From Nitrospirota bacterium (GTDB taxonomy: Bacteria; Nitrospirota; Thermodesulfovibrionia; UBA6902; DSMQ01): DNA of 64,000 nt. Positions 3,279 through 53,524 of this stretch are shown here, piece by piece. The DNA is taken from assembly GCA_016212185.1 (NCBI GenBank), contig JACRGX010000056.1:31240-95239 (forward strand), in the 5' to 3' direction. Each line of letters begins with the position of its first letter. Positions within the stretch are counted from its first letter, which is position 1. The notes beneath the pieces were generated by a model. It was given only the letters and a program-made list of their open reading frames with translations, did no database searches and was not told the DNA's origin. The position numbers were made by a program, and so were the translations under genes.

Positions 3279-5189
3279 TTATTTTCTTATGAGCAGATCT
3301 TTGAAATAAGCGCTCAATTTTACTATTTCCTTATCATCAAAAACATGCTTTGCCCATACAGCTTCAGGCACTGTCCCATGAAAATGGTTTTTAATCAGCC
3401 AATTCAGCGCCCACGGGAAATTATCTGCCGAGTTCACATAATAGCATGAATCCGGCTCAGGCTTTGTCTCAGGAGCAAGTATCTGACATGGTATGTGGCA
3501 GTATTTACCTGTGGGATCATACTGCAAAACCGGAATTCTGTTTTGCAGGGCTTCTTCAATCGTTGTTGATGAGTAACTGACAAGCATGTCAGAGAGGGAC
3601 AGATACTCTTCAAACGACCCTTCGGTATGGATGTCGTAACAATCGGATTCAACCAATAAAGACTCTAAATCATTTTTTGATAAATAATCTTTCGGCCTGA
3701 ACCGGATAATTAAATGTAAATCACTAACTTTTTCCACAGCACTGATAAGTGAGTTCAGATTGCCGATATATTCATCCACTGTCTGATAAACATAAAATCT
3801 TAAATCATTATGCAGTCTGGGAGTATCGGCATGCAGTAGTATGATTTTATTTTCATACCCTCGAAGAAGTTTTTTTCTTAAAAGCACCCTCGTGTTTTCA
3901 TTTTTGTTAACCTTTGCAAAAAGTAGCGGACCTGTAATAATATGTGTGCTCCGTGTTGAAATCTCCTGAAGATATGCCCTTGCCCATGGAGATTGAACGG
4001 CAATATATTGATAGCGGGTATTCACTAAACCAAGACCGTGTTCCTTCCATTCCATCATCTCATACTGGTTTTTGGGAGGGACATGCGAACCATGTGAAAC
4101 CAGCAATGACGGTATATTATATAAAGAAGCGAGTTCACCGAGGTTATAATTCATAAACCTTGCCATCTGCGAAATAATAATTGCCGGTCTTAATTTCTTT
4201 AAAAACCCGTTTAGATGTAAGGTTTGATTATGTATATTAGAAATAGTGGAAACAATGTCGTCCCTGATTTTTTTAAATACTATCTCTTTAACGCTAATCC
4301 CTCTGTAGCTGAAAATTTCATCGCTGCCCGCTGATTCCCAAAGTCTTTGTACCGATTGATTTATTGTTTTTTTAAATCTTTTTTGTTTTTTGCCGCCAAT
4401 AACCGGCAAAGGGAAAAAAATATCTCCATCAGCCCTGAATAAAAAACTTAGTATTGAACTGGGATTTTTATCTGCCAAATAAAGCACACGGGCATCTGGC
4501 AATACCGGCATTAATTCATTGATGACCCTCTGAAAGTTATAACTCATTGACGGTGCAATAATAATTTGCCGGGCTTTAAGCAGACTGCTCATCGACAGTA
4601 TTAATTTATAGATAAGAAACTTACATAAATCAGAAGCATTTTTTTTAACCGCTCCGGCTGCCGGATTCCTGCTTATATGGACGCCCTGCATTAATTCATG
4701 TGCTATGCAGAGCTTTTCAGATATCCTCTTGCTGATAGTTCCTGCATATCCTTCGCTATCGGACAAATATGGATTAAGCGAATAGCTGCCGTCTCTTGAA
4801 AATGCGATTATTTGCTCAATATTCCAAAGTAAGCAGGCCCTGTAAATAATTTCAATAAGCCATAAAAAATAATGAATAAATGTTCTCAGGTAAAAGAGAA
4901 CGGTTATGTTATATCCCTGTGTTATTCTAAGTTCATCCTCTATCGTTAATAGAGATTCGCAGAATTTGTATATCTCATCCGATTTCAGTAATGCCTGTTC
5001 ATGCCCTTCTCTTCCAAAAAGTTCATAAGTGGTAAAAAAACGGATTCCATTGCGTTTTAACTGCAGTTGTGCCTCAGGGAGAATTGCAAGAACATAAGTG
5101 TCTTCCTTCCTTAGTTCCTCAATAGACCTCCGGGCGATGAAGGAATCTACTTCGTCTTTGAATTCAAATATGATAAGGGTTCTGCTCAA
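3279..5189 (-). CDS. hypothetical protein, TagF/Capsule_synth-like C-terminal domain
   Basis: 636 aa; C-terminal IIRFRPKDY...SYSSTTIEEAL pattern parallels KxHP paralogs 673-2304, 12548-14632, 14632-15678. Confidence 0.3.
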   Translation of the reverse strand: MSRTLIIFEFKDEVDSFIARRSIEELRKEDTYVLAILPEAQLQLKRNGIRFFTTYELFGREGHEQALLKSDEIYKFCESLLTIEDELRITQGYNITVLFYLRTFIHYFLWLIEIIYRACLLWNIEQIIAFSRDGSYSLNPYLSDSEGYAGTISKRISEKLCIAHELMQGVHISRNPAAGAVKKNASDLCKFLIYKLILSMSSLLKARQIIIAPSMSYNFQRVINELMPVLPDARVLYLADKNPSSILSFLFRADGDIFFPLPVIGGKKQKRFKKTINQSVQRLWESAGSDEIFSYRGISVKEIVFKKIRDDIVSTISNIHNQTLHLNGFLKKLRPAIIISQMARFMNYNLGELASLYNIPSLLVSHGSHVPPKNQYEMMEWKEHGLGLVNTRYQYIAVQSPWARAYLQEISTRSTHIITGPLLFAKVNKNENTRVLLRKKLLRGYENKIILLHADTPRLHNDLRFYVYQTVDEYIGNLNSLISAVEKVSDLHLIIRFRPKDYLSKNDLESLLVESDCYDIHTEGSFEEYLSLSDMLVSYSSTTIEEALQNRIPVLQYDPTGKYCHIPCQILAPETKPEPDSCYYVNSADNFPWALNWLIKNHFHGTVPEAVWAKHVFDDKEIVKLSAYFKDLLIRK

Positions 5190-5200
5190 GGTTAATGCAG

Positions 5201-6574
5201 CTAAACTGACTTCCCTGCCTGCCGGTCAGGCGGGTGAATCCAGAAATCAATAAGCCTTTCCGCCATTCTAAAGTCTTCTTCCTCTCTCACTTCAAGCGGC
5301 GAGTAAGGGTTGTTCACCGCGTAAATGCCTATTTTTTCGCCGAGCAGGGAGCCTTCGCGAATAAATTCAGGATGCGTGACTGAACACAGCCCTTTGATTC
5401 CGATAAATGAAGGTTCTTTGTATTTTCGCGGGATATCGCCTTTGTCTATTCTCTCAATTTTATTATCTTCCTGCTTCCATATAGACCTGTATTCGGTTCT
5501 GGCGGCAATAACGCTGTCCAGTCCTTCTTTAATTAATTGCTCTATTATGCTGTCTATGAGCTTTTTGGTCCTGAAAGGGAATGTCTCCTCAAGATAGACG
5601 ATAATATCAGGAAATATTTTTTGCTCTTCAAGCTTATTCAAAGAATACTGAAGCACCTTCTCAATATCAACAAAATCTCTTGAGAGCGCTTCATCTCTTA
5701 CAAACGGGGCGCTTGCTCCAAGAGTTTTTACAAGCTTTGCAAGCTCATGGTTATCCGTAGACACTATTACCTCTTTGATGTATTTTGATGCAAGCGCCTG
5801 TTCAATGGTATACCCTATAAGAGGCTTGCCTTTAAGATAATTAATCTTCCCCTTTACAGGTATAACAGCCATAATCCTGAGGTTTTTAATATCTACATGT
5901 ATATTGTTTTTTGTCTCCGGATTCAGCGATTCAAGTATATTCACCACACTTGCACACCTTTTCTTGTCTCCGCCCTGGTGAATGCCATGGTAGTGGTAAA
6001 CACTCGCATGAGGTTCATACACAATTACATATCCCTTTTGAAGCATTTTTTCCGCCCATATCCTGTCCTCAATATTCGCAGCCGTCTCGTCAAAAGGCAT
6101 CTCATTCCATGCTGATTTCCTTAGAATGCTGTTTGCATTGTGGAAAAAACTGTCTTTTTTCTGAACTCTCCGGTCCATGCCGAATATTATTGAGAGGTCT
6201 CTCTTATCTATATCCGGCGTATAGGCAAGCGGTTCCTGCCGTCCGTACACTCCAACCACTTTCGGGTCGTCAAAATTATTTAATAAACTTGACAGCCATT
6301 TTTCGTCAATAGGAATACAGTGGCCTGAAAGGCAGACAATATAATCTCCTCTGGATTCCCGTATCCCCATATTAAGGGCAAGCCCGGGTCTGTAGTCCTT
6401 GCACGTTATGACCTTTGCAATATTAAACTGCTGTGCCTTCTCAATTGTCTTGTCCGTGCTCTCATTATCAACTACAATAACTTCAAAATCAGTGAAATCC
6501 TGTTTGAATACCCCCATCAGACACGAGGTTATCCATCTTTCCTCATTTTTAGTCCTGATAATAATAGATACCAT
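5201..6574 (-). CDS. bifunctional GT2 glycosyltransferase / acylneuraminate-cytidylyltransferase-like protein
   Basis: N-term MVSIIIRTKNEERW...VVDNESTD (GT2 DxD region); C-term MAVIPVKGKINYLKGKPLIGYTIEQA... resembles CMP-NeuAc synthetase fold. Confidence 0.55.
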   Translation of the reverse strand: MVSIIIRTKNEERWITSCLMGVFKQDFTDFEVIVVDNESTDKTIEKAQQFNIAKVITCKDYRPGLALNMGIRESRGDYIVCLSGHCIPIDEKWLSSLLNNFDDPKVVGVYGRQEPLAYTPDIDKRDLSIIFGMDRRVQKKDSFFHNANSILRKSAWNEMPFDETAANIEDRIWAEKMLQKGYVIVYEPHASVYHYHGIHQGGDKKRCASVVNILESLNPETKNNIHVDIKNLRIMAVIPVKGKINYLKGKPLIGYTIEQALASKYIKEVIVSTDNHELAKLVKTLGASAPFVRDEALSRDFVDIEKVLQYSLNKLEEQKIFPDIIVYLEETFPFRTKKLIDSIIEQLIKEGLDSVIAARTEYRSIWKQEDNKIERIDKGDIPRKYKEPSFIGIKGLCSVTHPEFIREGSLLGEKIGIYAVNNPYSPLEVREEEDFRMAERLIDFWIHPPDRQAGKSV

Positions 6575-12547: not shown

Positions 12548-14632
12548 TTACACGACCTTGTCACTGCCCCATTTCTCGGAATATCTTCGCCTGCTTTCGG
12601 CTATAACATCCTCTCTGCTTAATCCAGCCTCAAAACCTTCAAGGCACCATCTTAGACACTCAGAGATACGTTCTGATGAAGCGCTGTCCATGAAAGGGTC
12701 CAGTATCTCATGAACCGCGCTGCAGTCGCCAAATCCGTCAAATCCGCCTTCTATATGCTTATGCAACGAGCCGAGCAATAACGGCATGCTGTCAAAGATG
12801 CAGATGTTTTTAAGGTTCTGCTGATAAAAAATACCCCTTATTGTCCTTAGAGGGTTAAACACAGCCGTGCGTTTTCCGCAGCATATGGATGTAAACATCG
12901 CGGTGGAAGGAAGACTGACTGCCATGTCAGCTACCTTTGACGAAAGCGTGACAGTGGTAAAAGGGTCCAGGATAAAACATCGCCGCTTTTCAACCAGAGA
13001 TTTAAAACCTTTCAATATATCCGCAGGCATGCGGCTGAAAAATTTCTCTTTCTTGGGTTTTATTACAACTGAGTATCCGCCCCTTTCCTCCATATCATTG
13101 AACAAGGTGCGGTAAAAATCAAAAATAACATCCCTGCCGTATATAAACCCGGGTTCATCAAAAACTGCTATCAGCGGACCGTTTTCAAAAGCGCCCATAT
13201 CTTTCAATTTGTCTTTAAGAAGATTAACCTGTTCACTAAGAGCTTCACTGTCCATCTGGTCATGATAGTAGCCGCTGATGACTTTATTAATGGCTTTATC
13301 CGGGTCAATAACCTGGCTAAGACTGTAACTGCCGGATAAAAAGGATACATTTGCCGGCCTGTCATCATAATATGAATGATTGCTGTATACCATGCTTCGT
13401 TCCACAAGGGCATTTATGCCGCCTGCCATCTCCATGGCAACCGCCCTCTGGTATATTTCAGCTCCGTAGGCGTCTTCAACATAAACTTTTATACTGTTTG
13501 ACATGAAATAGTCATACCACCATGCAACCCCTTTCAGTAAAAAAGCCGTCTGTACGTATGTCCAGAGGCGCTTGCGGCTGAACAGTATAATGTTTATCAG
13601 AAACAGACCCAAAAGCTTTAGAGACTTTGTAAGAATAATTTCATAATAAAGACCCGTCGGCTTCCATAGAGGGAATGAACCTTCTTCTGTGCCGGCATAA
13701 CCTCTTCTCCTTCCGTGGACTTTCATTTGAAGCCTGCCCGCCAACTCAAATTCCGCGTCGGTCGGCTGACGGTAGTCATTCTCCCAAAGACCTGCCAGAT
13801 GTGCGGGACTAAGCGCCCTTCCCCAAGCCCAATTAAGGTTGTTGCGCATATCAGGGGAAATTCCGTCAGAAATACTTGTAGCGATATAATAACCGAATAT
13901 TTTATGCGGCGCACCTGATGTTGAGATTTTTCCAAGAAAAGGGGCAATAAAAGGCAGCTGCGTTTCTGCCCGCTTATTCCTTACCAAATTGTTATCATGG
14001 GATTTATTAAGAAAAATTTTATTGAATATCTTTTCCGCATACCACGATGTAAAACCGGGATAACCGCCTCCGACAATCACTGCAAAAGGCATCTCCCTCA
14101 AATAAACTGCCAGTTCTTTCCCCCACCAGTTTGCCGGTACAAATAAAATGAACTCCTCTTTATCATCAGTTTTGCTCTTAGCCTGCCGCGATAAAATGTA
14201 AAATGCAAGATAGACAGCGGCTTCTATTTCCTGTGCAATCCTGAATTCTATGTATGCGGGTACAAATAAGCCGGCACTCAGTCCCGGCACAAGTGAACTG
14301 AAAGCATTTCTGTGTTCATTGGAAGAAACAATTTTTTTTGCTAATTGTATCACGGTATCATTTGCCCTTTCCCTGAGATTGTTACCGTTCTCATCGCAAA
14401 GCTCCTTTGCCGGAAGCGCATTAGGGCTGCAGGCAAGTCTCCTGGCGGTAATTTTTCTGGGAAATACTCTTGTCAGTAATGCAACCAGATGCTCAGCAAT
14501 AAAGTTTGCTTTCCAGTAGACAATCTCTAAAGAATTATATCTAAGGCAGACCTGCATTATGCGGATAAACAGCGATAATGAGATAAAAACAAAAACTATC
14601 GAACAGCGCCTGCCCCTGACCGACTTATGCAT
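12548..14632 (-). CDS. large hypothetical protein with TagF/Capsule_synth-like C-terminal domain
   Basis: 694 aa; C-terminal VVIKPKKEKF...STAMFTSICCGKR parallels KxHP paralogs. Confidence 0.3.
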   Translation of the reverse strand: MHKSVRGRRCSIVFVFISLSLFIRIMQVCLRYNSLEIVYWKANFIAEHLVALLTRVFPRKITARRLACSPNALPAKELCDENGNNLRERANDTVIQLAKKIVSSNEHRNAFSSLVPGLSAGLFVPAYIEFRIAQEIEAAVYLAFYILSRQAKSKTDDKEEFILFVPANWWGKELAVYLREMPFAVIVGGGYPGFTSWYAEKIFNKIFLNKSHDNNLVRNKRAETQLPFIAPFLGKISTSGAPHKIFGYYIATSISDGISPDMRNNLNWAWGRALSPAHLAGLWENDYRQPTDAEFELAGRLQMKVHGRRRGYAGTEEGSFPLWKPTGLYYEIILTKSLKLLGLFLINIILFSRKRLWTYVQTAFLLKGVAWWYDYFMSNSIKVYVEDAYGAEIYQRAVAMEMAGGINALVERSMVYSNHSYYDDRPANVSFLSGSYSLSQVIDPDKAINKVISGYYHDQMDSEALSEQVNLLKDKLKDMGAFENGPLIAVFDEPGFIYGRDVIFDFYRTLFNDMEERGGYSVVIKPKKEKFFSRMPADILKGFKSLVEKRRCFILDPFTTVTLSSKVADMAVSLPSTAMFTSICCGKRTAVFNPLRTIRGIFYQQNLKNICIFDSMPLLLGSLHKHIEGGFDGFGDCSAVHEILDPFMDSASSERISECLRWCLEGFEAGLSREDVIAESRRRYSEKWGSDKVV

Positions 14633-15678
14633 TATTTCAACTTGGATAAAACAAGACCGGCAACAGCGTCAACGGCGCCCCTGTGGTCAGGGGCTGATGC
14701 CTTAACCTCTTTCCAATCCCCCAGGTAACCGTGCCCTGCAAGATAATTCCAAAGCCTAGGCAGGAGAAATGAATTCTCCGGACTCCATCCTGAAAGAAAC
14801 GGCTCAACATTATATGTGGGAACCCCATATGCAACGCTTAACTGCGTAAACATTGAGGTAAGCCCGTAAACCCTGTCTGATATGCCGAGTACCGTCATCT
14901 CATCAGCCTCTTCAAATCCTATCCGCCTGAGTCTGTTATCAACCTTGTTTTTTTCATTTGGATGCGGCCTGACCAGAATAAGCACGTCTTTTCCTTCTTT
15001 TTCAACTATTTTTGCTTTTAAAGCAACACCCCCTGCATCCATATCAAACAGGCTGCCGCATCCTGCATCGCACGGCTCATAAAATGAGTGGCTATGGATA
15101 ATCTCTGACGCCAGAAAACAGACTTCTTTATCTTCTGGAATGCTTAGCTTTTTTTTTGTTTCTGTTTTCACTTTCTCAGACATTTTGGTCAAACTGCATT
15201 TTTCAAGATAGGGATGACCGGTAACCACAAGCTTGTCTTCAGGCATTCCCATATCAGCCAGCGCTGTTTTTGCGGCACTGTCCATCACCGCAAGTATATC
15301 CGGCATGTCATGCGTCAGCCCTCCGTCAGGTTCCAAAAATCTCTCAAGACCTTTGTAGTTGTCCAGAAAAGCAATACTAAACAGCCCCCTCTTTCCGGCT
15401 TCTCTAAAGATTTCCCGGTTAATCGTGTGTTTTGGATGACCATAGCCTGTCAATAAGAGGCTGAACTCTTTTGCAGGGAAATCCACCCAGCTCATGATTT
15501 TACTGTAATGTTTTTTATATACGATGTCTGACGGCGGTAGGGCATAAATATCTAACATAAGACCGGCTGACATCAATTTTCCAATAACCGGGATCAGTGC
15601 AGCAGCTGAACCTGCCTGCTGTGAAAAAATAAGTATGGATTTATCCGCTGCCTGTCTCAAGTTTTCTGAGTTCATCAA
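14632..15678 (-). CDS. TagF/Capsule_synth-like Rossmann transferase (putative)
   Basis: LILVRPHPNEKNK (RPHP) motif; 348 aa. Confidence 0.35.
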   Translation of the reverse strand: MMNSENLRQAADKSILIFSQQAGSAAALIPVIGKLMSAGLMLDIYALPPSDIVYKKHYSKIMSWVDFPAKEFSLLLTGYGHPKHTINREIFREAGKRGLFSIAFLDNYKGLERFLEPDGGLTHDMPDILAVMDSAAKTALADMGMPEDKLVVTGHPYLEKCSLTKMSEKVKTETKKKLSIPEDKEVCFLASEIIHSHSFYEPCDAGCGSLFDMDAGGVALKAKIVEKEGKDVLILVRPHPNEKNKVDNRLRRIGFEEADEMTVLGISDRVYGLTSMFTQLSVAYGVPTYNVEPFLSGWSPENSFLLPRLWNYLAGHGYLGDWKEVKASAPDHRGAVDAVAGLVLSKLK

Positions 15679-26432: not shown

Positions 26433-28898
26433 TTAATAAACGTTTTCTGTTTTTCTTTTCTCAAAAATCATAATAACGATAAAAATAATAAATCCGCAGG
26501 CTGAGATAACAGTCCATCCCCAATAATGCCTGAGGCTGTACTGAATCACAGCCTTTTCTGTCATATCAATGTCAACTATCCTGAACGGTCCGTTAGATAA
26601 TGGAAAATCAACACGCGATTTATTCTCCTTAACAACTTCCCATCTCCCTTCCGCGGGAATATTGGTCAGGGGAAAACTGATATTTCTGTGATATTCCAGA
26701 GGGTGGTTCATAAAAAGGGCGCCTCCCGTGCCTCTCAAATCAGGCGGCGCAGAGACCTCCCACCTGATATTGGAACTGCGTGAAAAATTCAATTTGCGTT
26801 TAAGCCTGTCTAAAACCAAAAAATCATAAACTGCTTTTTGGGAGCCTCTTGCTAATCCCTGAATAGTCTCTTTCAAAAACCTGCTGTCCGCCCCAGGGAA
26901 ATAAGTTATGTCAGGCCATGGTTCACCAAGCTCATACAGGCGCAGTCCACTGGTCTGTTTTATTTTCTTTGCCCCGATGTCATTTATTTCACGGTCTGTA
27001 AAAAGATATTTTACCCCAAGCGCCCTGAAGAGGCTTTTTGCAGAAATAACCATACTTGAATCTTTTTCAGATATCACTTTTTCAGAGCATATCCAGTTTA
27101 CCTCCATGAGATTTACGCCTTTTTTATTCAGTTCTTCAATATCATTAAGCGGCGCCCAGAAGCACCTCATCTCGGTAAAAATGCCTGTATCCGTAGGGCC
27201 GTCAAATGTGCTGAAACCCGCTAATGTAGCCTCATTGCGATACCACTGGTGTCCGGCAGAGCCGCAGTCTTCCAGGGTCAGCGCCTTATCCCTGTTTTTT
27301 ATTTCAATGCCGGAAAAAATCGGATGTCTTAAAACATCATATTTAGAAAGAAGGTCCGGCCTCTGAAACTGGTAAATTAAGAGGTAGCCGATTCCAATAA
27401 GAAGCACCAGCAGGAGCTGTGCCCTGGAAGTGTTCTTTGAAGAACTGCTGTAAACATTGAGGCGCCAGAAAGAAAAAAAAAAGATTGATATCAGTAATCC
27501 AAGTCCGGTAGTAAAAAACCGCTCCTCATGATTATGGATTAGCCCTGCGAATTCAGGCAGTTTGCCGGGCAATGCCCTCACTAACTCAGGTGAAAGCATC
27601 TGCAAAACAGAAACTGACCAGTAGACAGCATTTGCCAGGAGTACAACAGCAAGGACCAGCAATATAATTTTCATAAAATTCTTACCTGCTTTCTCCTTGT
27701 TGTTTTTAAAATATTCCGACAGCCATGCGATAAGAATAAAGCCAAACAGATTGGCAAAAAAAAGCATACGGAATAATGCATTATTAGAATATTTCATTCC
27801 CGGCATTACGCTGCGGAATATCGCCTGAAGACCCTCAAAACTCGTAATCAAAAAGGCGGCTACCCAGAAATATATCATCGCAATTATCCCTACAGGGAAA
27901 TTTTTCAATAAAGACAGATACAGCAGGATAGGGAGTATAAACAAAAAAGGGACATAAGCGTTATTGCCCAATCCAAAAACACTCAGCGAACTTATCACGG
28001 CATTCAAGTTGTTCCACGGCGCATAGCTTGAATAACTTGGGGCTACAGGCTCCCTGACAAGATAGCTCTCCAGAAGTATGGGCCCGAGGAAAAAAGAGCA
28101 AAAAAGAACTGCGGAGGAATAGCATGCAACGCCTCTTGCGATACGGCTGACCCTCTCCTTCCTTGGTATCGTGGAGTGCAAAACAAAGGCAACAGAAATC
28201 ACAACAAGGAATAAAGATATAAAAAGAAGTACTGAAAGAAAATTAGTGATAATTGAAAGGCTTAAAAAAATAAAAAGCAGGGACAAATAAAATGGGTTTC
28301 TGTGCTGCAGATATAAATAATATGCCAGAGTTATATATAACCCTGAATATAGGATTCCCGGTTGATGCGTATGAGCGTAAAAATGAAGTGACAGCGGAGT
28401 AAATAACCCGAATATCATAACCATAAACGTCCAGACAGGTGAAATTTGCAAAGTTCTGCACCAGAACAAAAACCCCAGCATCCCGTAATTCAGCAATAGA
28501 AATATCTGCACCCCCTTTGCAATATGGTCATCTGAAATGACAAGCCAGGGCAAATGGAAGGGAGAGAGGTAGCTGTATATCATTGAATCTTCCTGTGATA
28601 CCCCTCCAAAAGTCCTTTCGTTCCAGAATGGCAAATCACCTTTAAGAATGCTCTCTCTGTAAAACCTGAGAAATATGCGCTCCTGGTCAAAGAAGTCTCT
28701 CTGACCATACTGGTTGCGGAGCGTCATAGCCTCATGCACCTGCCCCGAAGATGCAAATGTGCCTGTGTACAAAACCTCTTTTGGGGCATAGGCGTACCTG
28801 CCTGAAAGATACGGCAATGCTGTCAGGATAATTATGATTTCAATCAATATGACAATTTTTACGAGTTCGCTGTTTTTATTGAACATTCTTAAGCTCAC
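26433..28898 (-). CDS. large polytopic membrane protein, YfhO/GT-C-like glycosyltransferase (putative)
   Basis: 821 aa; N-terminal about 450 aa multi-TM region plus soluble C-terminal domain, typical of GT-C enzymes. Confidence 0.4.
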   Translation of the reverse strand: MSLRMFNKNSELVKIVILIEIIIILTALPYLSGRYAYAPKEVLYTGTFASSGQVHEAMTLRNQYGQRDFFDQERIFLRFYRESILKGDLPFWNERTFGGVSQEDSMIYSYLSPFHLPWLVISDDHIAKGVQIFLLLNYGMLGFLFWCRTLQISPVWTFMVMIFGLFTPLSLHFYAHTHQPGILYSGLYITLAYYLYLQHRNPFYLSLLFIFLSLSIITNFLSVLLFISLFLVVISVAFVLHSTIPRKERVSRIARGVACYSSAVLFCSFFLGPILLESYLVREPVAPSYSSYAPWNNLNAVISSLSVFGLGNNAYVPFLFILPILLYLSLLKNFPVGIIAMIYFWVAAFLITSFEGLQAIFRSVMPGMKYSNNALFRMLFFANLFGFILIAWLSEYFKNNKEKAGKNFMKIILLVLAVVLLANAVYWSVSVLQMLSPELVRALPGKLPEFAGLIHNHEERFFTTGLGLLISIFFFSFWRLNVYSSSSKNTSRAQLLLVLLIGIGYLLIYQFQRPDLLSKYDVLRHPIFSGIEIKNRDKALTLEDCGSAGHQWYRNEATLAGFSTFDGPTDTGIFTEMRCFWAPLNDIEELNKKGVNLMEVNWICSEKVISEKDSSMVISAKSLFRALGVKYLFTDREINDIGAKKIKQTSGLRLYELGEPWPDITYFPGADSRFLKETIQGLARGSQKAVYDFLVLDRLKRKLNFSRSSNIRWEVSAPPDLRGTGGALFMNHPLEYHRNISFPLTNIPAEGRWEVVKENKSRVDFPLSNGPFRIVDIDMTEKAVIQYSLRHYWGWTVISACGFIIFIVIMIFEKRKTENVY

Positions 28899-31728: not shown

Positions 31729-32874
31729 TCAGGGCAAACGCCCTGCCGCTCCTTTTCTCTGTCCCTTTATTTCCTTTATTATCTCTGCTTCGCTGAGGCC
31801 TGTAATTTCCATATAATATTTCAGCGCTTCAGGTTTAAGTGAATCATATTTTTTTATCATTTCAAAGCCCTCTTCCTGCGTCAATATGCCGGCCCTGACG
31901 TCTCTGGTGGCATGGTCAGTGGTGCGTCCGAAGCCGCGTTTCAGATATTTTAAATAATCATGCACTCCTGCCATGTTACATTCTACGCTTTTATAACCTT
32001 TGTATGTACCTTCAACATCTCCCTCTCTCCAGCCATATTCCTTCTTTATAAAATCCACCTGCCGTTCATCATCCCAGAATATATAATCTCCAAGATGTAT
32101 TCCTTCAACCCCTGCCTTCCTCATCTCTTCAGCTGTGGGAAACATGAAAGGCCTCAATTCACTTCTTTTAATCTCATCACTTACCATTTGGTCAATGCCG
32201 ACTTTTGAAGATATCTTTTGAAAATATTCCGCGTCATATCTGACAGGGTTAAAGTATGTAGCCTTAGTGCCGTTTTCAGCCGCTGATTCACCCCAAATAA
32301 TAAGTTTTATGCCGAATTTTATGGCTACCTGCAGGGGAAATGCGCCAACCCCTGCGTGGCAGTGCCAGCAGGAGTCGCCTATTTTATAAAGCGACTGTTT
32401 TGCAAGGCGGTCTACAAGGCTTTTCTTGGGTGTGAACATTATATGGTCAATATCAAATTTTTCAAGACAGTTCTGCAAATTATATTTCCCTGTTTCAGAA
32501 AACCATGTATGGCTGAAAGTCACGGCAAGAGGACGCATTCCCAAAACTTTTGTAACAACATGAAGCTGGTATGTGCTGTCTTTACCGCCGCTGATAGGCA
32601 CAATACAGTGATAATTATCCCCTGCAATTTTTTTATTATGCTCCACTTTCTTAAGCAATTCGTTCCATCTGTCTTCCCAGTTTATCTTCATCTTCTGTTC
32701 CGAACTGTTACAACCCGAGCATATTCCTCTCTCATCAAAGGTTATACCCTCAACAGTCTCAGGCAGACAGCAGCGGACACAGTATTTCAACTGGGGGAAA
32801 GGGACTTCAAGCTCTCCTTTTTTTACGGCTTTTTCTGTTTTGATTTTATCAATTAATTTCATAATTGCCTCCAC
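31729..32874 (-). CDS. N-acetyl sugar amidotransferase (PP-loop ATPase; PseA/WbuX-like)
   Basis: N-terminal CxxC zinc ribbon plus IVPISGGKDSTYQ PP-loop (SGGKDS). Confidence 0.75.
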   Translation of the reverse strand: MEAIMKLIDKIKTEKAVKKGELEVPFPQLKYCVRCCLPETVEGITFDERGICSGCNSSEQKMKINWEDRWNELLKKVEHNKKIAGDNYHCIVPISGGKDSTYQLHVVTKVLGMRPLAVTFSHTWFSETGKYNLQNCLEKFDIDHIMFTPKKSLVDRLAKQSLYKIGDSCWHCHAGVGAFPLQVAIKFGIKLIIWGESAAENGTKATYFNPVRYDAEYFQKISSKVGIDQMVSDEIKRSELRPFMFPTAEEMRKAGVEGIHLGDYIFWDDERQVDFIKKEYGWREGDVEGTYKGYKSVECNMAGVHDYLKYLKRGFGRTTDHATRDVRAGILTQEEGFEMIKKYDSLKPEALKYYMEITGLSEAEIIKEIKGQRKGAAGRLP

Positions 32875-45872: not shown

Positions 45873-47051
45873 CTAAACGATTAAGGCTCTATCTGATTTT
45901 TTCATAACCTCAATCAGGGGCTTATTCAGCTTCTCCGCAATTTTTTTGCAGTCTTCATATTCAGGCGCGGATTTCAGAATCTCATTCCCCAGCTTTGAAA
46001 TTTTCACGCGTACATTTCCAAACTCAGTTTTTACTGTCTTAATCTCACGCTGTAATGTAATTCTGTCTGCCTCATAAAATCTTACTCCAATGCTTGTTGT
46101 CTCTTTTAAAATTATTTTGATTAAGCCCTCTTTTTTATCCGCACTGCACAGCACGGTAAGCACTATGCCGGGCCTGTCCTTTTTCATAATTACCTGTGTT
46201 AAAAATACGTCAAGCGCGCCTGCCTTAAAAAGCCTCTCCATAACGTATTCATAAACCTGCGGGTTCATATCGTCAATATTGGTTTCTATAATAGTAACCC
46301 CCTGACCCCTGACCCCTGACCCCTGACCCTCTCCCACAAACACTCTCAAAACATTCGGGTGCGTTTTAAAATCCCTGCCTCCTGCGCCTATGCCGATTTT
46401 AGAAACGCTCATCACGGGCATCTGCCCGAAACCGTCAGCAAGCGAGGATATGAGCACTGCGCCTGTCGGTGTAGTAAGTTCAAATTTTGTATCCGATGAA
46501 TAAACAGGTATGTACTTCAGTAATTCCAAGGTTGCAGGCGCGGGCACGGGCAGTATGCCGTGCTCTGTCTTTATCATGCCGCTTCCTAAATTCAACGGGG
46601 AAGCATAGATTTTTTTTACCCCTAAGATATCCAGTCCGATTAACGCGCCGAAAATATCCACAATGCAGTCAACAGCGCCGAGTTCATGCAGATGGACTTT
46701 ATCAACCCTCTCCCCATGCACCTTTGCCTCTGCCTCAAAAAGCCGTCTAAAGATTGATAAACCTTTCTGCTTTACAATATTGGGAAGGGAAGATTTTTTA
46801 ATTATTCTCTCTATATCCTTCCATCTTCTGACTTCTGACTTCTGACTCCTGACTCCTGTTTTTAAGATGACCTCAATCTTCGTCGCCAAAAATCCCGCGC
46901 GTTTCACTTTCCGTGATTCTAATTCATACCCGCGCATAGGAAGTTTGGAGAGTTCCTTTTTTAATTTTTCAAGGGGAACGCCGGCATCAACCAGCGCGCC
47001 CAGAATCATATCACCGCTTATGCCTGATGAAGTGTCAAAGTATATGATCAT
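45873..47051 (-). CDS. larC: nickel-pincer cofactor biosynthesis protein LarC (DUF111)
   Basis: MIIYFDTSSGISGDMILGALVDAGVP N-terminal hallmark; contains two in-frame heptamer repeat tracts. Confidence 0.8.
   Translation of the reverse strand: MIIYFDTSSGISGDMILGALVDAGVPLEKLKKELSKLPMRGYELESRKVKRAGFLATKIEVILKTGVRSQKSEVRRWKDIERIIKKSSLPNIVKQKGLSIFRRLFEAEAKVHGERVDKVHLHELGAVDCIVDIFGALIGLDILGVKKIYASPLNLGSGMIKTEHGILPVPAPATLELLKYIPVYSSDTKFELTTPTGAVLISSLADGFGQMPVMSVSKIGIGAGGRDFKTHPNVLRVFVGEGQGSGVRGQGVTIIETNIDDMNPQVYEYVMERLFKAGALDVFLTQVIMKKDRPGIVLTVLCSADKKEGLIKIILKETTSIGVRFYEADRITLQREIKTVKTEFGNVRVKISKLGNEILKSAPEYEDCKKIAEKLNKPLIEVMKKSDRALIV
46298..46333. repeat. tandem heptamer (CCCCTGA)x4 inside larC CDS
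   Basis: Encodes GQGSGVRGQGV on minus strand. Confidence 0.8.
46825..46858. repeat. tandem heptamer (CTTCTGA)x3 plus (CTCCTGA)x2 inside larC CDS
   Basis: Encodes GVRSQKSEVRR on minus strand. Confidence 0.8.
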
Positions 47052-47068
47052 AATAGTTCTTCGTTAGT

Positions 47069-47142
47069 GTGTCATTCCCGTGAAAACGGGAATCCAGAAT
47101 ACAAAAAATCTGGATGCCCGATTAAGAATCTCGGGCATAACA
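47069..47142. repeat. MITE/REP-like element between larC and larB
   Basis: tgtcattcccgtgaaaacgggaatccag ... ctggatgcccgattaagaatctcgggcataaca. Confidence 0.6.
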
Positions 47143-47147
47143 GATCC

Positions 47148-47882
47148 TTATAACGTATTTATTTTATGCGCTAAAACCCCGGCGCCGAAGCCATTGTCAA
47201 TGTTCATAACCGCAATGCCCGGAACGCATGAATTAAGCATTGCAAAGAGCGCTGTTAATCCCGCAAAGCTTGTGCCGTAACCGACAGATGTAGGAACAGC
47301 AATCACAGGTTTGTCCGTCATCCCGCCCACAACAGAGGGAAGGGCACCTTCCATGCCTGCAACAACAATTATCACATGCGCTTTTTTCAAATATTCAGCA
47401 TTCCCCATCAGCCTGTGGAGCCCTGCCACCCCTACATCATAAACAGTGGTTACACTGCTTCCAAGAAATTCCGCAGTCACCGCCGCCTCTTCCGCAACAG
47501 CAATATCAGAGGTCCCCGCGGTCAAAACAAGCACATGGCCCTTTTTCTTTATTTCCCCGCCGATTGAGATCATGCCTGATGCAGAATGGAATACGGCATT
47601 TTTTATTTTCAGGGAATTATAAATCCTCTCCGTTGCCTTTGAAATAAGAAGCCTCCGACTCTTTTTATACATTGCCTCTGCAATCTTTATCACCTGCTCC
47701 TCAGTCTTGCCCGCGGCAAAAATAACCTCCGGAACTCCGAGCCTGAGATGCCTGTGGTGGTCCACCTTTGCAAATGAAATGTCCTCATACGGCAGGTGCT
47801 TGAATTTTTTTACTGCCTCATCCACGGAGATACTGCCTGATTTTACAGAATTTAGAATTCGTTGTAATTTTTTATTGTCCAT
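47148..47882 (-). CDS. larB: nickel-pincer cofactor biosynthesis protein LarB (PurE-like)
   Basis: N-terminal extension plus PurE-like fold (VLVLTAGTSDIAVAEEA...VVAGMEGALPSVVGG). Confidence 0.8.
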   Translation of the reverse strand: MDNKKLQRILNSVKSGSISVDEAVKKFKHLPYEDISFAKVDHHRHLRLGVPEVIFAAGKTEEQVIKIAEAMYKKSRRLLISKATERIYNSLKIKNAVFHSASGMISIGGEIKKKGHVLVLTAGTSDIAVAEEAAVTAEFLGSSVTTVYDVGVAGLHRLMGNAEYLKKAHVIIVVAGMEGALPSVVGGMTDKPVIAVPTSVGYGTSFAGLTALFAMLNSCVPGIAVMNIDNGFGAGVLAHKINTL

Positions 47883-50730: not shown

Positions 50731-52164
50731 CTATCCTATCGTCTTTATCGCCTTGTCCAGTCTCTTCAGCGCTTTTTCCTTGCCCAGCACTTCAAGCACT
50801 TCAAATATCCCCGGGCTTTCCGTGCCGCCGGTCATGGCAACGCGCACAGGCTGTGCAAGGTCTTTAAGCTTGACCCCGTGCTTTTCTGTAACCGCCTTAA
50901 ATGCCCCTTCAAGCTCCTGATGGGAGAATCCTGTAAGGGATATCAGGCTGCTTTTCAGCTCTGATAATAATTCCCTGCTTTTTTCATTTAGAAATTTCTC
51001 TTTTGCTTTTTCGTTGTATTCAACCTCTTCGGCAATATAGTATCTGAGTGAGTTTGCAAGCTCCACCAGCGTCTTTGAACGTTCTTTAAGGGTATTATTT
51101 GCCTTTGACAGCCATTCTTTATTTAATTCCTGCCCCTCGCTGATTATTTTGTCTTTAATAAGAAACAGCAGGACCAGTTCTGCAAGTTTTTCAGCCGGCG
51201 TATTGATAATGTACTGGCCGTTAAGCCAGAGGAGTTTTTCAGGATTAAACACTGCCGCCGCCTTGCCGACATGTTCAAAAGAAAATTTTTCTATCAACTC
51301 TTTGCGGGAAAATATTTCCTGGTCCCCGAAAGACCATCCGAGCCTTACGAGATAGTTAACAAGTGCGTCCGGCAGAAAGCCCATTTCCTGATATGCCATG
51401 ACAGCGGTTGCACCGTGTCTTTTTGAAAGCCGCGTCTTGTCAGCGCCTAAAATCATGGGCAGATGCGCAAATTTAGGAATTTCATAACCGAGCGCCTTGT
51501 AAATGTGTATTTGTTTGGGGGTATTGTTAAGGTGGTCGTCCCCGCGGATGACGTGGGTGATATTCATATCTACATCATCAACAACAACCGTAAAATTGTA
51601 TGTAGGCGTTCCGTCAGAGCGGAGGATAATCAGGTCGTCAAGCTGTGAATTATCAAATATAACCGCCCCTCTTATCAGGTCGTCAACAATAGTCTGCCCG
51701 TCTGCCGGCATTTTAAACCTCACTGCAGCGCCTTGTTCTTGACCCCTTGAATCCTTGACCCCTTGAACCCTTTCTGTCGCTCTGCACCTTCCGTCATATT
51801 TTTGAGGCAGACCTTTTGCCGCCGCCTCTTTGCGCCTTGCCTCAAGCTCTTCAGGGGTGCAGAAGCAATAATACGCCTTGCCCTCTTTCAACAGCTTATC
51901 AACATATCCCCTGTAAACATCAAACCGGTCCGTCTGCCTGAACGGTCCCTCGTCCCATTCAAGCCCAAGCCATTTCATCCCTTCAATTATTGCCTCAATG
52001 TATTCGTCTGTTGAGCGGCTCCTGTCCGTGTCCTCAATTCTTAAAATGAACGCGCCGCCCTGGTGTCTTGCAAGGAGATAGTTGAAAAGCGCTGTTCTTG
52101 CGCCTCCTATGTGAAGGTGCCCGGTCGGGCTTGGTGCAAATCTTACGCGTATTTTATCAGGCAA
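50731..52164 (-). CDS. gltX: glutamyl-tRNA synthetase
   Basis: RFAPSPTGHLHIGGARTALFN; proposed TTG start at 52162-52164 preceded by AAAGGAG RBS (track ORF extends to GTG at 52209). Carries an in-frame repeat-derived insertion. Confidence 0.9.
   Translation of the reverse strand: MPDKIRVRFAPSPTGHLHIGGARTALFNYLLARHQGGAFILRIEDTDRSRSTDEYIEAIIEGMKWLGLEWDEGPFRQTDRFDVYRGYVDKLLKEGKAYYCFCTPEELEARRKEAAAKGLPQKYDGRCRATERVQGVKDSRGQEQGAAVRFKMPADGQTIVDDLIRGAVIFDNSQLDDLIILRSDGTPTYNFTVVVDDVDMNITHVIRGDDHLNNTPKQIHIYKALGYEIPKFAHLPMILGADKTRLSKRHGATAVMAYQEMGFLPDALVNYLVRLGWSFGDQEIFSRKELIEKFSFEHVGKAAAVFNPEKLLWLNGQYIINTPAEKLAELVLLFLIKDKIISEGQELNKEWLSKANNTLKERSKTLVELANSLRYYIAEEVEYNEKAKEKFLNEKSRELLSELKSSLISLTGFSHQELEGAFKAVTEKHGVKLKDLAQPVRVAMTGGTESPGIFEVLEVLGKEKALKRLDKAIKTIG
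51738..51770. repeat. CTTGACCCCTTGAATCCTTGACCCCTTGAACCC repeat inside gltX CDS
   Basis: 27-nt stretch identical (reverse complement) to 56770-56796; encodes VQGVKDSRGQEQG loop. Confidence 0.8.
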
Positions 52165-52195: not shown

Positions 52196-52363
52196 TTACA
52201 GTCTGTCACAGCGGTGGTTTGTTAATTTATCCCATGTGTGTTCGTCTATTTCAGAGATATAGTCCTGTATAGAAAATTCTTTACCGCACCCCGTGCAGTA
52301 TAAGCGGACATGGCTTCAACTGAAAATTACTCTTAGCTCCCCTTCACATTTTTTGCATTTCAT
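52196..52363 (-). CDS. C4 zinc-ribbon small protein with in-frame TGA (selenoprotein candidate, recoded gene or pseudogene)
   Basis: MKCKKCEGELRVIFS-[TGA]-SHVRLYCTGCGKEFSIQDYISEIDEHTWDKLTNHRCDRL*; CxxC-N20-CxxC needs read-through of the TGA at 52316-52318; stem-loop (ACUGCAC-GGG-GUGCGGU) begins about 17 nt after UGA. Confidence 0.35.
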
Positions 52364-52423
52364 TATTGCCCTTTCTCTGTAGTGGAATCAATTTAATTCT
52401 TTATAATATCATATTTTAATTTC

Positions 52424-53524
52424 TTAAGCCTCTTTTATCCTCCCCTTGTTTATCAACATCCTTTTTTTGCCGTTTTTATAAATCATCCATACGGTCGGTT
52501 TGAAAAATATATAGTCCTGATGAAACGGCGTGCTTACCTTGCCTCCGAAGGAGCTGTTGTCGCCAAAGGCGATGTGGATTGTGCCGAGGATTTTTTCGGT
52601 CTCAAGGATGCTGTCAGGTCTTGATGCCTTATCATTAGTTCCAATGCCGAGCTCTGCAATATTTGCATTCTCCGGTCTTTCTGAAAACTTTTTTCTTAAA
52701 AAACCCGCGTATTCTTCTTTCCCTTTTACATCAACGGCTATTCCGTTTTTAACGGTAATTGTTATCGCTGATTTTAATTTTTGTGTCGGCGCCCACTCTA
52801 AAATTAATTTTCCGTTAGCCGTGCCTTCAACTGGCGCAAAATAGACCTCTCCTGCAGGCAGGTTGCTGTAAGCGCCTTTTTGTGTGATAATCCCTGTATC
52901 TGCTTTTGCCTTACGCCCCCTTTTTGAAAATGAAATGTGCGTGCCGTTTGGCGTTCTTATCTTCACCCTGTCTGCTTTATTTATGGTTTGCGCTATTTTT
53001 TCAGTCCTTTCTGCCATTTTCCCCCAGTCAACGTTCATTGCGCCTTTGAGCATTCTCTTTTCAAAAAGCGGCATGCTTGCATAGCGTGCCTTGCATATTT
53101 CCGTAAGAAATCTGCGGAAATTTGTGTGCGTTGTTGAATAGTGTGACAATGCAACTACAATATTGACTGAATCTTTTTTAAATTTTTTTATTATCTTTTC
53201 TGCCTCTTTAAGACTGGCTTTATTTATTTTTTTATCACGCAGGGGCTTAAAAATCTTTTTAGCCTTTAATTCTTTTACTACATTCCTACTAAATGCCTTT
53301 AGCCATAAAGCCTCTGGAGGCTCTGCCCCGTGACTGCCTGTAACCTGATATTTCAGAAAAGCAACTCTCTTTGTAAAATTTTTTCCCTCTTTTGTAATTA
53401 ATTTTGCCGTTTTGGTCAACTCATTACTGTATCTATCCGTAAATACAATAACGCTTTCGCTCTTTTTAATCTTGAAATTTACCTTGTAGATATTTGTTAT
53501 TGTATTTTGAATAACATTTTTCAC
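52424..53524 (-). CDS. aminopeptidase (M29/AmpS-like) family protein
   Basis: C-terminal IAELGIGTNDKA...ILETEKILGTIHIAFGDN resembles M29 family blocks (from memory). Confidence 0.45.
   Translation of the reverse strand: MKNVIQNTITNIYKVNFKIKKSESVIVFTDRYSNELTKTAKLITKEGKNFTKRVAFLKYQVTGSHGAEPPEALWLKAFSRNVVKELKAKKIFKPLRDKKINKASLKEAEKIIKKFKKDSVNIVVALSHYSTTHTNFRRFLTEICKARYASMPLFEKRMLKGAMNVDWGKMAERTEKIAQTINKADRVKIRTPNGTHISFSKRGRKAKADTGIITQKGAYSNLPAGEVYFAPVEGTANGKLILEWAPTQKLKSAITITVKNGIAVDVKGKEEYAGFLRKKFSERPENANIAELGIGTNDKASRPDSILETEKILGTIHIAFGDNSSFGGKVSTPFHQDYIFFKPTVWMIYKNGKKRMLINKGRIKEA

What the first reader, a model, noticed from the sequence alone, without database searches (positions are those of the whole stretch)
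52196..52363. Small C4 zinc-ribbon ORF with an in-frame TGA immediately upstream of gltX
On the minus strand, ATG at 52361-52363 (AAAGGG 6 nt upstream) opens MKCKKCEGELRVIFS, then TGA (52316-52318), then the same frame continues SHVRLYCTGCGKEFSIQDYISEIDEHTWDKLTNHRCDRL and stops at 52196-52198. The two CxxC knuckles, 20 residues apart, form a canonical zinc ribbon only if the TGA is decoded. No alternative start exists downstream of the TGA. A 7-bp stem with GGG loop begins about 17 nt after the UGA, in SECIS-like position. TGA is a normal stop elsewhere in the window (terC, bamD). Candidates are a selenocysteine-containing zinc-ribbon protein, programmed read-through or a recent nonsense pseudogene.
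Basis: seen in the sequence. Interest (0 to 1): 0.6.

Follow-up and report, generated by a model that had tools for sequence, protein, structure and literature searches.

The report
Small zinc-ribbon selenoprotein gene (known family)

Summary
The ORF is exactly as described: minus strand, ATG 52363, TGA 52318-52316, TAA 52198-52196. With the TGA read through, the 55-aa peptide matches NCBIfam NF041197 "dual CXXC motif small (seleno)protein" end to end (68 bits, cutoff 40). This family was first reported as OS_HP3 by Zhang & Gladyshev in 2007.

Related loci fall into two groups. Twenty-five members, mostly Nitrospirota, carry TGA at this codon. They include the window and a sister metagenome contig with 89% nucleotide identity and the same gene order. 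Fifteen loci, and 253 database proteins, carry Cys there instead.

The sequence after the TGA evolves like coding DNA. An 8-bp hairpin lies 15 nt after the UGA, has an invariant G at the start of its loop, and is built from the codons of the second CxxC knuckle. It forms 6-8 of 8 pairs in every TGA member and only 3-5 in every Cys member, with one compensatory G-C/A-U pair.

TGA is an ordinary stop elsewhere in the window. The window holds no sel genes, so the Sec machinery of this genome could not be tested. The protein's biochemical function is unknown. Verdict: a genuine selenoprotein gene, a new member of a known family, of low novelty.

The parts
52369..52374 (-). Shine-Dalgarno-like AAAGGG, 5 nt upstream of the ATG
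   Evidence: Read directly from the sequence. A purine-rich AGAAAGG is also present at the same place in the sister contig L040, although the rest of the upstream spacer has diverged.
52196..52363 (-). Coding sequence of the 55-residue dual-CXXC small selenoprotein (NF041197 / OS_HP3 family), including the in-frame UGA and the TAA stop
   Evidence: Translation. The NF041197 model matches over positions 1-53 of 53, at 68.2 bits against a cutoff of 40. Homologues are, and the coding signature on both sides of the TGA is.
52346..52357 (-). First CxxC zinc knuckle (Cys3 to Cys6)
   Evidence: C3 and C6 are invariant in the 33-member alignment A4.
52316..52318 (-). UGA codon 16, the predicted selenocysteine codon
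   Evidence: The same column is TGA in 25 members and TGC/TGT in 15 loci. Cys is invariant at that column in 105 aligned Cys-form proteins.
52282..52300 (-). SECIS-like hairpin: 5' arm 52300-52293, GGG loop 52292-52290, 3' arm 52289-52282. It overlaps the codons of the second CxxC knuckle.
   Evidence: Folding. In the 24 aligned TGA members, 89.1% of cells pair and no shuffle out of 500 does as well. Pair 29-45 is G-C in 14 members and A-U in 9, and the first loop base is an invariant G. Cys members pair in only 56.3% of cells. The designated helix forms 6-8 of 8 pairs in TGA members against 3-5 in Cys members.
52286..52297 (-). Second CxxC zinc knuckle (Cys23 to Cys26), encoded inside the hairpin
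   Evidence: C23 and C26 are invariant. Codon usage here is constrained in the TGA members: Thr24 is ACG in 17 of 17, and the third base of Gly27 matches the second base of codon 22.
50731..52164 (-). gltX (glutamyl-tRNA synthetase), the neighbouring gene. It is co-oriented, starts 31 nt after the small gene's stop, and is probably co-transcribed.
   Evidence: Pfam tRNA-synt_1c at E = 1e-111. No terminator-like site lies between the two genes. The sister contig L040 has the same arrangement.

Best explanation
This is a functional gene for a 55-residue selenoprotein of the 'dual CXXC motif small (seleno)protein' family (NCBIfam NF041197, OS_HP3).

Inferred mechanism, by analogy with the bacterial SelB/SECIS pathway: the ribosome reaches UGA at codon 16. 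An 8-bp hairpin with a G-first apical loop starts 15 nt downstream and is made of the codons of the second CxxC knuckle. It acts as the bacterial SECIS element and recruits SelB carrying GTP and Sec-tRNA(Sec). Selenocysteine is inserted and translation runs on to the TAA.

Inferred product, from a model of a Cys homologue: a three-stranded C4 zinc ribbon followed by an acidic helical tail. The Sec (or Cys) lies in the turn between strands 1 and 2, between the two CxxC knuckles in sequence, so it is more likely a free reactive selenol than a zinc ligand.

Shown here: family membership, Sec/Cys alternation at the column, coding conservation after the UGA, and a hairpin specific to the TGA members. 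Inferred: actual Sec insertion, zinc binding, and any redox or metal-handling role. The biochemical function of the family is not known.
For: - The NF041197 model matches full length at 68.2 bits against a cutoff of 40, and still scores 60.1 bits with X at the TGA position.
- The family is listed as a selenoprotein in the literature. It was first described as OS_HP3 with a predicted SECIS (PMC1976440) and is tabulated under NF041197 in a 2026 review (PMC13188914).
- Column 16 is TGA in 25 members. These are the window, the sister contig L040, 20 Nitrospirota/Thermodesulfovibrionia MAGs, one Desulfobacterales MAG and 2 metagenome contigs. It is TGC or TGT in 15 loci.
- 253 full-length Cys-form proteins exist in the protein database. 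Several are named 'dual CXXC motif small (seleno)protein' by NCBI.
- The region after the TGA has zero in-frame stops across 24 sequences, against 37 and 69 in the other two frames. Divergence at the three codon positions is 0.33/0.21/0.52, the same pattern as before the TGA.
- The hairpin pairs in 89.1% of cells in TGA members and in 56.3% in Cys members. It has a compensatory pair (G-C in 14, A-U in 9) and an invariant loop G. Thr24 is always ACG in TGA members (17 of 17) but in only 3 of 6 Cys members. Pair counts per sequence do not overlap: 6-8 against 3-5, Mann-Whitney p = 1.6e-8, not corrected for phylogeny.
- The sister contig L040 shares 89% nucleotide identity over 4.6 kb and the same gene order. 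It keeps the TGA, an identical hairpin and the frame, with 5 synonymous and 4 conservative non-synonymous changes.
- TGA is otherwise a stop, ending 15 of 49 long ORFs.
- The AlphaFold2 model of a Cys homologue has a mean pLDDT of 82.7, with strands at 9-14, 19-23 and 29-31 followed by helices.
- The Thermodesulfovibrio genomes that carry a selC* gene were reported to have complete selA/B/C/D (PMC5389517).
Against: - No selA, selB, selD or tRNA-Sec lies in the 64-kb window. The Sec trait of this particular genome is therefore assumed from the lineage.
- The phylum of the window was not established directly. It is inferred only from the hosts of the nearest homologues of the small protein.
- On this single sequence the hairpin is not thermodynamically unusual, with z between -0.66 and -1.18.
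- The four central base pairs of the stem follow automatically from two TGC Cys codons and also pair in the Cys forms.
- The G-C/A-U covariation splits along two clades and may represent a single evolutionary event.
- No member of the family has been shown experimentally to contain selenium in the literature I could read.
- The 'RxU' motif given for the family in the review is not present here. The window has F-S-U.
Confidence: 0.88

Rival explanations
1. The UGA is recoded to something other than selenocysteine. One route is Cys insertion by a tRNA-Sec-like selC* tRNA(Cys) with a UCA anticodon, possibly delivered by a SelB paralogue. The other is low-level near-cognate read-through inserting Trp or Cys.
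For: selC* tRNA(Cys) genes have been reported in Thermodesulfovibrio, Nitrospirae and Deltaproteobacteria, and a UCA-anticodon form translated an opal codon as Cys in E. coli (PMC5389517). Cys is functionally acceptable at this column, since many homologues carry it.
Against: In that paper the selC*-carrying genomes also had the complete Sec apparatus. The alternation of TGA and Cys, together with a hairpin in SECIS position that is kept only in TGA members, is the standard signature of Sec. No selC* gene, and no tRNA of any kind, lies in the window.
Confidence: 0.05
2. The gene is a nonsense pseudogene: a former Cys-form gene inactivated by a TGC-to-TGA mutation and no longer made as a full-length protein.
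For: TGC to TGA is a single-base change. The gene is tiny and its function is unknown. Sec machinery was not found in the window.
Against: TGA occupies the same column in 25 members across two phyla. A sister genome with 89% nucleotide identity keeps the TGA, the frame and the hairpin, with no indel or second stop. The part after the TGA shows a coding-type substitution pattern and has no in-frame stops in 24 sequences. Synonymous codon choice maintains the hairpin only where TGA is present.
Confidence: 0.03
3. Translation really stops at the UGA and gives a 15-residue leader peptide. The downstream hairpin and sequence would then act as an RNA element regulating the adjacent gltX.
For: The gene lies 31 nt upstream of gltX with no terminator between them. 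The hairpin is conserved.
Against: Homologues in other lineages sit next to quite different genes, such as aspS, an ADP-ribosylglycohydrolase and a pyrE-like gene, yet keep the same two-part ORF. The region after the UGA varies mainly at third codon positions and has no in-frame stops. Cys-form homologues are translated straight through as 55-56-residue proteins.
Confidence: 0.02
4. The organism uses a genetic code in which TGA is a sense codon, such as code 4 (Trp) or code 25 (Gly).
For: One database homologue (P0035) is recorded with W at this column.
Against: TGA ends 15 of the 49 long ORFs in the window, and the genes are tightly packed under code 11. P0035 also ends in W where its relatives have a stop, which points to a mis-translation by the pipeline.
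Confidence: 0.01

Closest known systems
NCBIfam NF041197, 'dual CXXC motif small (seleno)protein' (CxxC_Se_CxxC), equal to 'hypothetical protein OS_HP3' of Zhang & Gladyshev 2007 (NAR 35:4952, PMC1976440)
   Same: Same length (55-56 aa). Same two CxxC knuckles with the Sec/Cys column between them. End-to-end HMM match above the curated cutoff. A hairpin downstream of the UGA, as described for OS_HP3. Occurs in anaerobic sulfate-reducer-type lineages.
   Different: The residues before Sec are F-S-U here, and mostly I/F-G/S-U in Nitrospirota, rather than the 'RxU' motif tabulated for the family. The C-terminus is the Nitrospirota type (..RPCDRV / HRCDRL), not the Desulfobulbia '..IIYD' type. The position directly upstream of gltX is seen only in the window and its sister contig.
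Bacterial SECIS elements (E. coli fdhF/fdnG type; bSECISearch consensus of Zhang & Gladyshev 2005, quoted from my own knowledge)
   Same: A stem-loop inside the coding sequence just 3' of the UGA. The apical loop begins 23 nt after the UGA, inside the 16-37 nt range I recall for the consensus. A G is conserved at the start of the loop.
   Different: The loop is very small (3 nt, or 5 nt in some relatives) and there is no evident bulged U as in fdhF. SelB binding was not tested, and Rfam has no matching model.
Generic C4 zinc ribbons (T. thermophilus ZifS, PDB 8yoz; topoisomerase I C-terminal ribbons; RNA polymerase subunits Rpo12/RPC10; HypA zinc site)
   Same: The predicted fold is a three-stranded zinc ribbon with two CxxC knuckles.
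   Different: All matches are weak: Foldseek E of 0.14 or worse, and the best profile match is HypA at E = 8e-4 over 29 residues. None of these proteins has a Sec/Cys in the hairpin turn or the acidic helical tail, so no function can be transferred.

Membership tests
NF041197 dual CXXC motif small (seleno)protein / OS_HP3 | Full-length match to the curated HMM above its cutoff | tested here: met
   68.2 bits with C at the Sec column and 60.1 bits with X, against a cutoff of 40, over profile positions 1-53 of 53.
NF041197 dual CXXC motif small (seleno)protein / OS_HP3 | Two CxxC motifs with the Sec/Cys column between them, in a protein of about 55 residues | tested here: met
   C3, C6, position 16, C23 and C26 are invariant across 33 members. 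The window has TGA at position 16.
NF041197 dual CXXC motif small (seleno)protein / OS_HP3 | 'RxU' local motif, as tabulated in the 2026 review | tested here: not met
   The window reads F-S-U and the Nitrospirota members mostly G-U or S-U without Arg at position -2. Desulfobacterales L039 (R-Q-U) and the Desulfobulbia Cys forms (R-x-C) do have it. This is a clade-level variation and is not part of the HMM definition.
Bacterial selenoprotein gene (general) | In-frame UGA aligned with Cys in homologues | tested here: met
   25 TGA members against 15 TGC/TGT loci, and 253 Cys-form proteins.
Bacterial selenoprotein gene (general) | Reading frame conserved as coding sequence on both sides of the UGA | tested here: met
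   Divergence at the three codon positions is 0.33/0.21/0.52 after the UGA and 0.35/0.24/0.56 before it. There are 0 in-frame stops after the UGA, against 37 and 69 in the other frames.
Bacterial selenoprotein gene (general) | SECIS stem-loop shortly downstream of the UGA with a conserved G in the loop | tested here: met
   An 8-bp stem lies 15 nt after the UGA. 89.1% of cells pair in TGA members against 56.3% in Cys members, there is one compensatory pair, and the first loop G is invariant. SelB binding itself is not testable here.
Bacterial selenoprotein gene (general) | selA, selB, selC (tRNA-Sec) and selD present in the same genome | not testable with these tools
   None of them lies in the 64-kb window, and the rest of the genome is not available. 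The only support is at lineage level: the Thermodesulfovibrio genomes that carry selC* were reported to have complete selABCD.
Bacterial selenoprotein gene (general) | Selenium actually incorporated at the UGA position | not testable with these tools
   This needs 75Se labelling or mass spectrometry.

The most novel reading that the evidence does not exclude
The family may work with the aminoacyl-tRNA machinery. It sits directly beside aaRS-related genes in three unrelated arrangements. Here and in the sister contig it lies upstream of gltX. In a large Nitrospirota clade it lies downstream of aspS. In a third clade it lies two genes upstream of a free-standing ThrRS-type editing domain. A Sec-bearing zinc ribbon could then be a redox- or selenium/zinc-sensing partner of tRNA charging or editing. 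That would give a first function to a selenoprotein family that has had none since 2007.
Probability: 0.08. Interest if true: 0.55.

Novelty: new member of a known kind. Interest (0 to 1): 0.22.

Why it matters
Ordinary gene callers stop at the TGA and miss this gene. In public protein sets its relatives appear only as 37-38-residue C-terminal fragments, or mis-translated with Trp. Recognising it corrects the annotation and indicates that the organism uses selenocysteine.

It also shows that the Nitrospirota branch of this family is almost entirely the Sec form, while the Desulfobulbia branch is the Cys form. The SECIS stem is made from the codons of the second zinc knuckle, so selection on the RNA and on the protein acts on the same 19 bases.

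It does not open a new question. The family is curated and its function remains unknown.

Tried and rejected
- A word-indexed protein search with the read-through peptide found nothing.
It returned mostly spurious eukaryotic C2H2 zinc-finger proteins, because 'YCTGCGKEFS' mimics the C2H2 consensus. It also gave the two truncated homologues that opened up the family.
- I guessed that the adjacent 457-aa and 636-aa ORFs (5201-6574 and 3279-5189) were selA and selB. They are not: one is a glycosyltransferase/cytidylyltransferase fusion and the other has no family match.
- A scan of the window for other TGA-split ORFs found no convincing second selenoprotein.
- An exact look-up of the window's GlnS, to find the source genome, found no record. 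No GTDB species representative carries a small protein closer than about 53% identity. The source organism therefore stayed unidentified.
- Rfam (gathering thresholds) and ARAGORN found nothing in the window.
- Structure and sequence searches against the PDB gave only generic zinc ribbons, so no function could be transferred. A literature search for ZifS found nothing usable.
- Folding the single sequence against shuffles did not make the hairpin significant. Only the comparison of TGA and Cys members did.

Full report
**Observation.** On the minus strand an ATG at 52363 opens MKCKKCEGELRVIFS. A TGA follows at 52318-52316. The same frame then continues SHVRLYCTGCGKEFSIQDYISEIDEHTWDKLTNHRCDRL to a TAA at 52198-52196. 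An AAAGGG run lies 5 nt before the ATG. No in-frame start codon follows the TGA, and the only ORF listed there is in another frame. TGA is an ordinary stop in this genome: it ends 15 of the 49 long ORFs, and the genes are tightly packed under the standard bacterial code. It has 8 pairs including one G-U and starts 15 nt after the UGA. Taken alone it is no more stable than shuffled sequence, with z between -0.66 and -1.18.

**Identity.** With the TGA read as C or X, the 55-residue peptide matches NCBIfam NF041197, 'dual CXXC motif small (seleno)protein', from end to end. It covers profile positions 1-53 of 53 and scores 68.2 and 60.1 bits against a curated cutoff of 40. Pfam gives only sub-threshold zinc-ribbon matches. 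[quoted passage not shown] OS_HP3 was first reported in 2007 from the symbionts of Olavius algarvensis, with two TGA-containing members and a predicted SECIS (PMC1976440). The kind of thing is therefore already known.

**Comparative test.** An exhaustive search with the half after the TGA returned mainly spurious C2H2 zinc-finger proteins. It also returned two proteins of 37-38 residues that are homologues truncated by gene callers. Their contigs carry the same arrangement: MKCKxCGK...IG, then TGA, then ...CTxCGKE.

A DNA-level scan of one genome per species found 31 further family loci. A metagenome scan added six more. The codon at column 16 divides them as follows:
- **TGA in 25 members:** the window, the sister contig L040, 20 Nitrospirota/Thermodesulfovibrionia MAGs, one Desulfobacterales MAG and two metagenome contigs.
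- **TGC or TGT in 15 loci:** one small Nitrospirota subgroup and the Desulfobulbia-type forms.

A profile search also found 253 full-length Cys-form proteins, several named 'dual CXXC motif small (seleno)protein' by NCBI. Cys is invariant at that column in 105 aligned Cys forms.

**Is the part after the UGA translated?** Across 24 TGA members, codons 17-54 contain no in-frame stop, while the other two frames contain 37 and 69. Mean pairwise divergence at codon positions 1, 2 and 3 is 0.33, 0.21 and 0.52. The values before the UGA are nearly the same, at 0.35, 0.24 and 0.56.

The metagenome contig L040 has 89% nucleotide identity to the window over 4.6 kb. It has the same gene order: M29-like peptidase, small gene, gltX, glnS, gpsA. 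Its small gene matches at 159 of 168 bases. It keeps the TGA, an identical hairpin and the frame, and differs by five synonymous and four conservative non-synonymous changes. A recent nonsense pseudogene is therefore excluded.

**The hairpin as a SECIS.** In the 24 aligned TGA members the same 8-pair helix sits at the same distance from the UGA.
- 89.1% of cells form a standard pair, and none of 500 shuffles does as well. Sliding the 3' arm by one to three columns drops this to 18-57%.
- Pair 29-45 is G-C in 14 members and A-U in 9, with one exception. This couples the second base of codon 22 (Arg CGC against Tyr/His/Asn xAC) to the synonymous third base of Gly27 (GGC against GGU).
- The first loop base is an invariant G. 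Thr24 is ACG in 17 of 17 TGA members but in only 3 of 6 Cys members that have Thr there.
- In the first ten Cys-form loci aligned, the same columns pair in only 56.3% of cells. The two outer pairs never form, and only the UGCA/UGCx core imposed by the two Cys codons survives.
- Per sequence, TGA members form 6-8 of the 8 pairs and Cys members 3-5, with no overlap. Mann-Whitney p is 1.6e-8, not corrected for phylogeny.

There are caveats. The covariation follows two clades and may be a single event. Part of the stem follows automatically from the two Cys codons. From my own knowledge of the bSECISearch consensus (loop 16-37 nt from the UGA, G near the start of the loop), the element fits. I could not run that program, and Rfam has no matching model.

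**Protein.** An AlphaFold2 model of a Cys-form relative (P0033, 49% identical to the window peptide) was built with 105 aligned homologues. Its mean pLDDT is 82.7, with strands at 9-14, 19-23 and 29-31 followed by short helices. This is a three-stranded zinc ribbon with an acidic helical tail. Residue 16 falls in the turn between strands 1 and 2, between the two knuckles in sequence. I infer that it is an exposed reactive residue rather than a zinc ligand, but I had no coordinates to measure this. PDB fold and sequence searches gave only generic zinc ribbons: ZifS 8yoz at E = 0.14, topoisomerase I, RNA polymerase subunits, and a HypA zinc site at E = 8e-4. No function can be transferred, and the literature I could read proposes none.

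**Context.** The small gene lies 60 nt after an M29-like peptidase gene and 31 nt before gltX, with no terminator-like site between it and gltX. Co-transcription with gltX is likely but not shown. Elsewhere the family has other neighbours:
- aspS directly upstream in a large Nitrospirota clade.
- A divergent radical-SAM gene upstream, with an ADP-ribosylglycohydrolase and then a free-standing tRNA-Thr_ED editing domain downstream, in the clade closest to the window.
- A pyrE-like gene, a PilZ gene and hflX in Desulfobulbia.

The recurrence of aaRS-related neighbours is worth noting, but I did not test it statistically.

**Sec machinery.** I annotated essentially all large ORFs of the window. 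They comprise a surface-glycan/nonulosonic-acid cluster of about 37 kb and housekeeping genes, with no selA, selB or selD and no tRNA. An early guess that two adjacent ORFs were selA and selB was wrong. The source genome could not be located. The only support is therefore at lineage level: the Thermodesulfovibrio genomes that carry a selC* gene were reported to have complete selABCD (PMC5389517). The same paper describes tRNA-Sec-like selC* tRNA(Cys) species in these lineages. That leaves a small possibility that the UGA is read as Cys.

**Verdict.** The gene is a new member of a curated selenoprotein family. It has a clade-specific local motif (F-S-U rather than RxU) and a position upstream of gltX that is seen only here and in the sister contig. 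Novelty and interest are low. The main residual uncertainties are the untested Sec machinery of this genome and the unknown biochemical role of the family.

Noticed in passing
window 52196-52363; L010, L012-L015, L017, L019, L024-L026 (about 4150-6165); L007 6001-7671: Family members sit next to aaRS-related genes in three different arrangements. Here and in L040 the gene is upstream of gltX. In at least 12 Nitrospirota loci it is directly downstream of aspS. In L007, L018, L031 and L035 it is two genes upstream of a free-standing archaeal-type ThrRS editing domain (PF08915), after an ADP-ribosylglycohydrolase. The Desulfobulbia Cys forms instead follow a pyrE-like gene.
   Followed up: partly
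window 673-37600, minus strand: One very long surface-glycan/nonulosonic-acid biosynthesis cluster. It holds NeuB, several cytidylyltransferases, a DegT aminotransferase, GT2 glycosyltransferases, methyltransferases and four radical-SAM enzymes, three of them with B12-binding domains. Five large ORFs in it have no Pfam or NCBIfam match: 3279-5189 (636 aa), 12548-14632 (694 aa), 14632-15678 (348 aa), 26433-28898 (821 aa) and 31729-32874 (381 aa).
   Followed up: partly
protein P0035 (public protein collection): A homologue is recorded with Trp at the Sec column and an extra terminal Trp where its relatives have a stop. A pipeline apparently translated both TGA codons with genetic code 4. Other Sec-form relatives appear in the databases only as 37-38-residue C-terminal fragments (P0010 and P0029).
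   Followed up: yes
window 52199-52315, minus strand (residues 17-55): The motif YCTGCGKEFS mimics the eukaryotic C2H2 zinc-finger consensus. As a result, 26 of the 29 significant hits in an exhaustive protein search were long proteins with several matched stretches each. I took these to be C2H2 zinc-finger proteins and false positives, but did not inspect them individually.
   Followed up: yes
window 52424-53524, minus strand: The gene upstream of the small ORF is only a weak, partial match to peptidase family M29 (35.8 bits, residues 165-325) and has no NCBIfam equivalog. It is conserved in the same position in the sister contig L040.
   Followed up: no
window 45873-47882, minus strand: A LarC-type nickel-insertion protein (PF01969, E = 1e-147) lies next to an AIR-carboxylase-like (LarB-like) gene. 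This suggests biosynthesis of the nickel-pincer cofactor. It sits just downstream of gpsA, glnS and gltX.
   Followed up: no
L009, L041-L043 (Nitrospirota Cys forms): A small Nitrospirota subgroup has TGT or TGC at column 16. It still keeps 5 of the 8 hairpin pairs and the Nitrospirota-type C-terminus. This looks like a recent Sec-to-Cys replacement with the SECIS in decay.
   Followed up: partly
review PMC13188914, selenoprotein table: NF041197 is listed twice, as OS_HP3 with motif 'RxU' and as 'hypothetical protein DW' with motif 'GxU'. Neither motif describes the Nitrospirota members, which read I/F-G/S-U. The published local motifs therefore do not cover this clade.
   Followed up: partly
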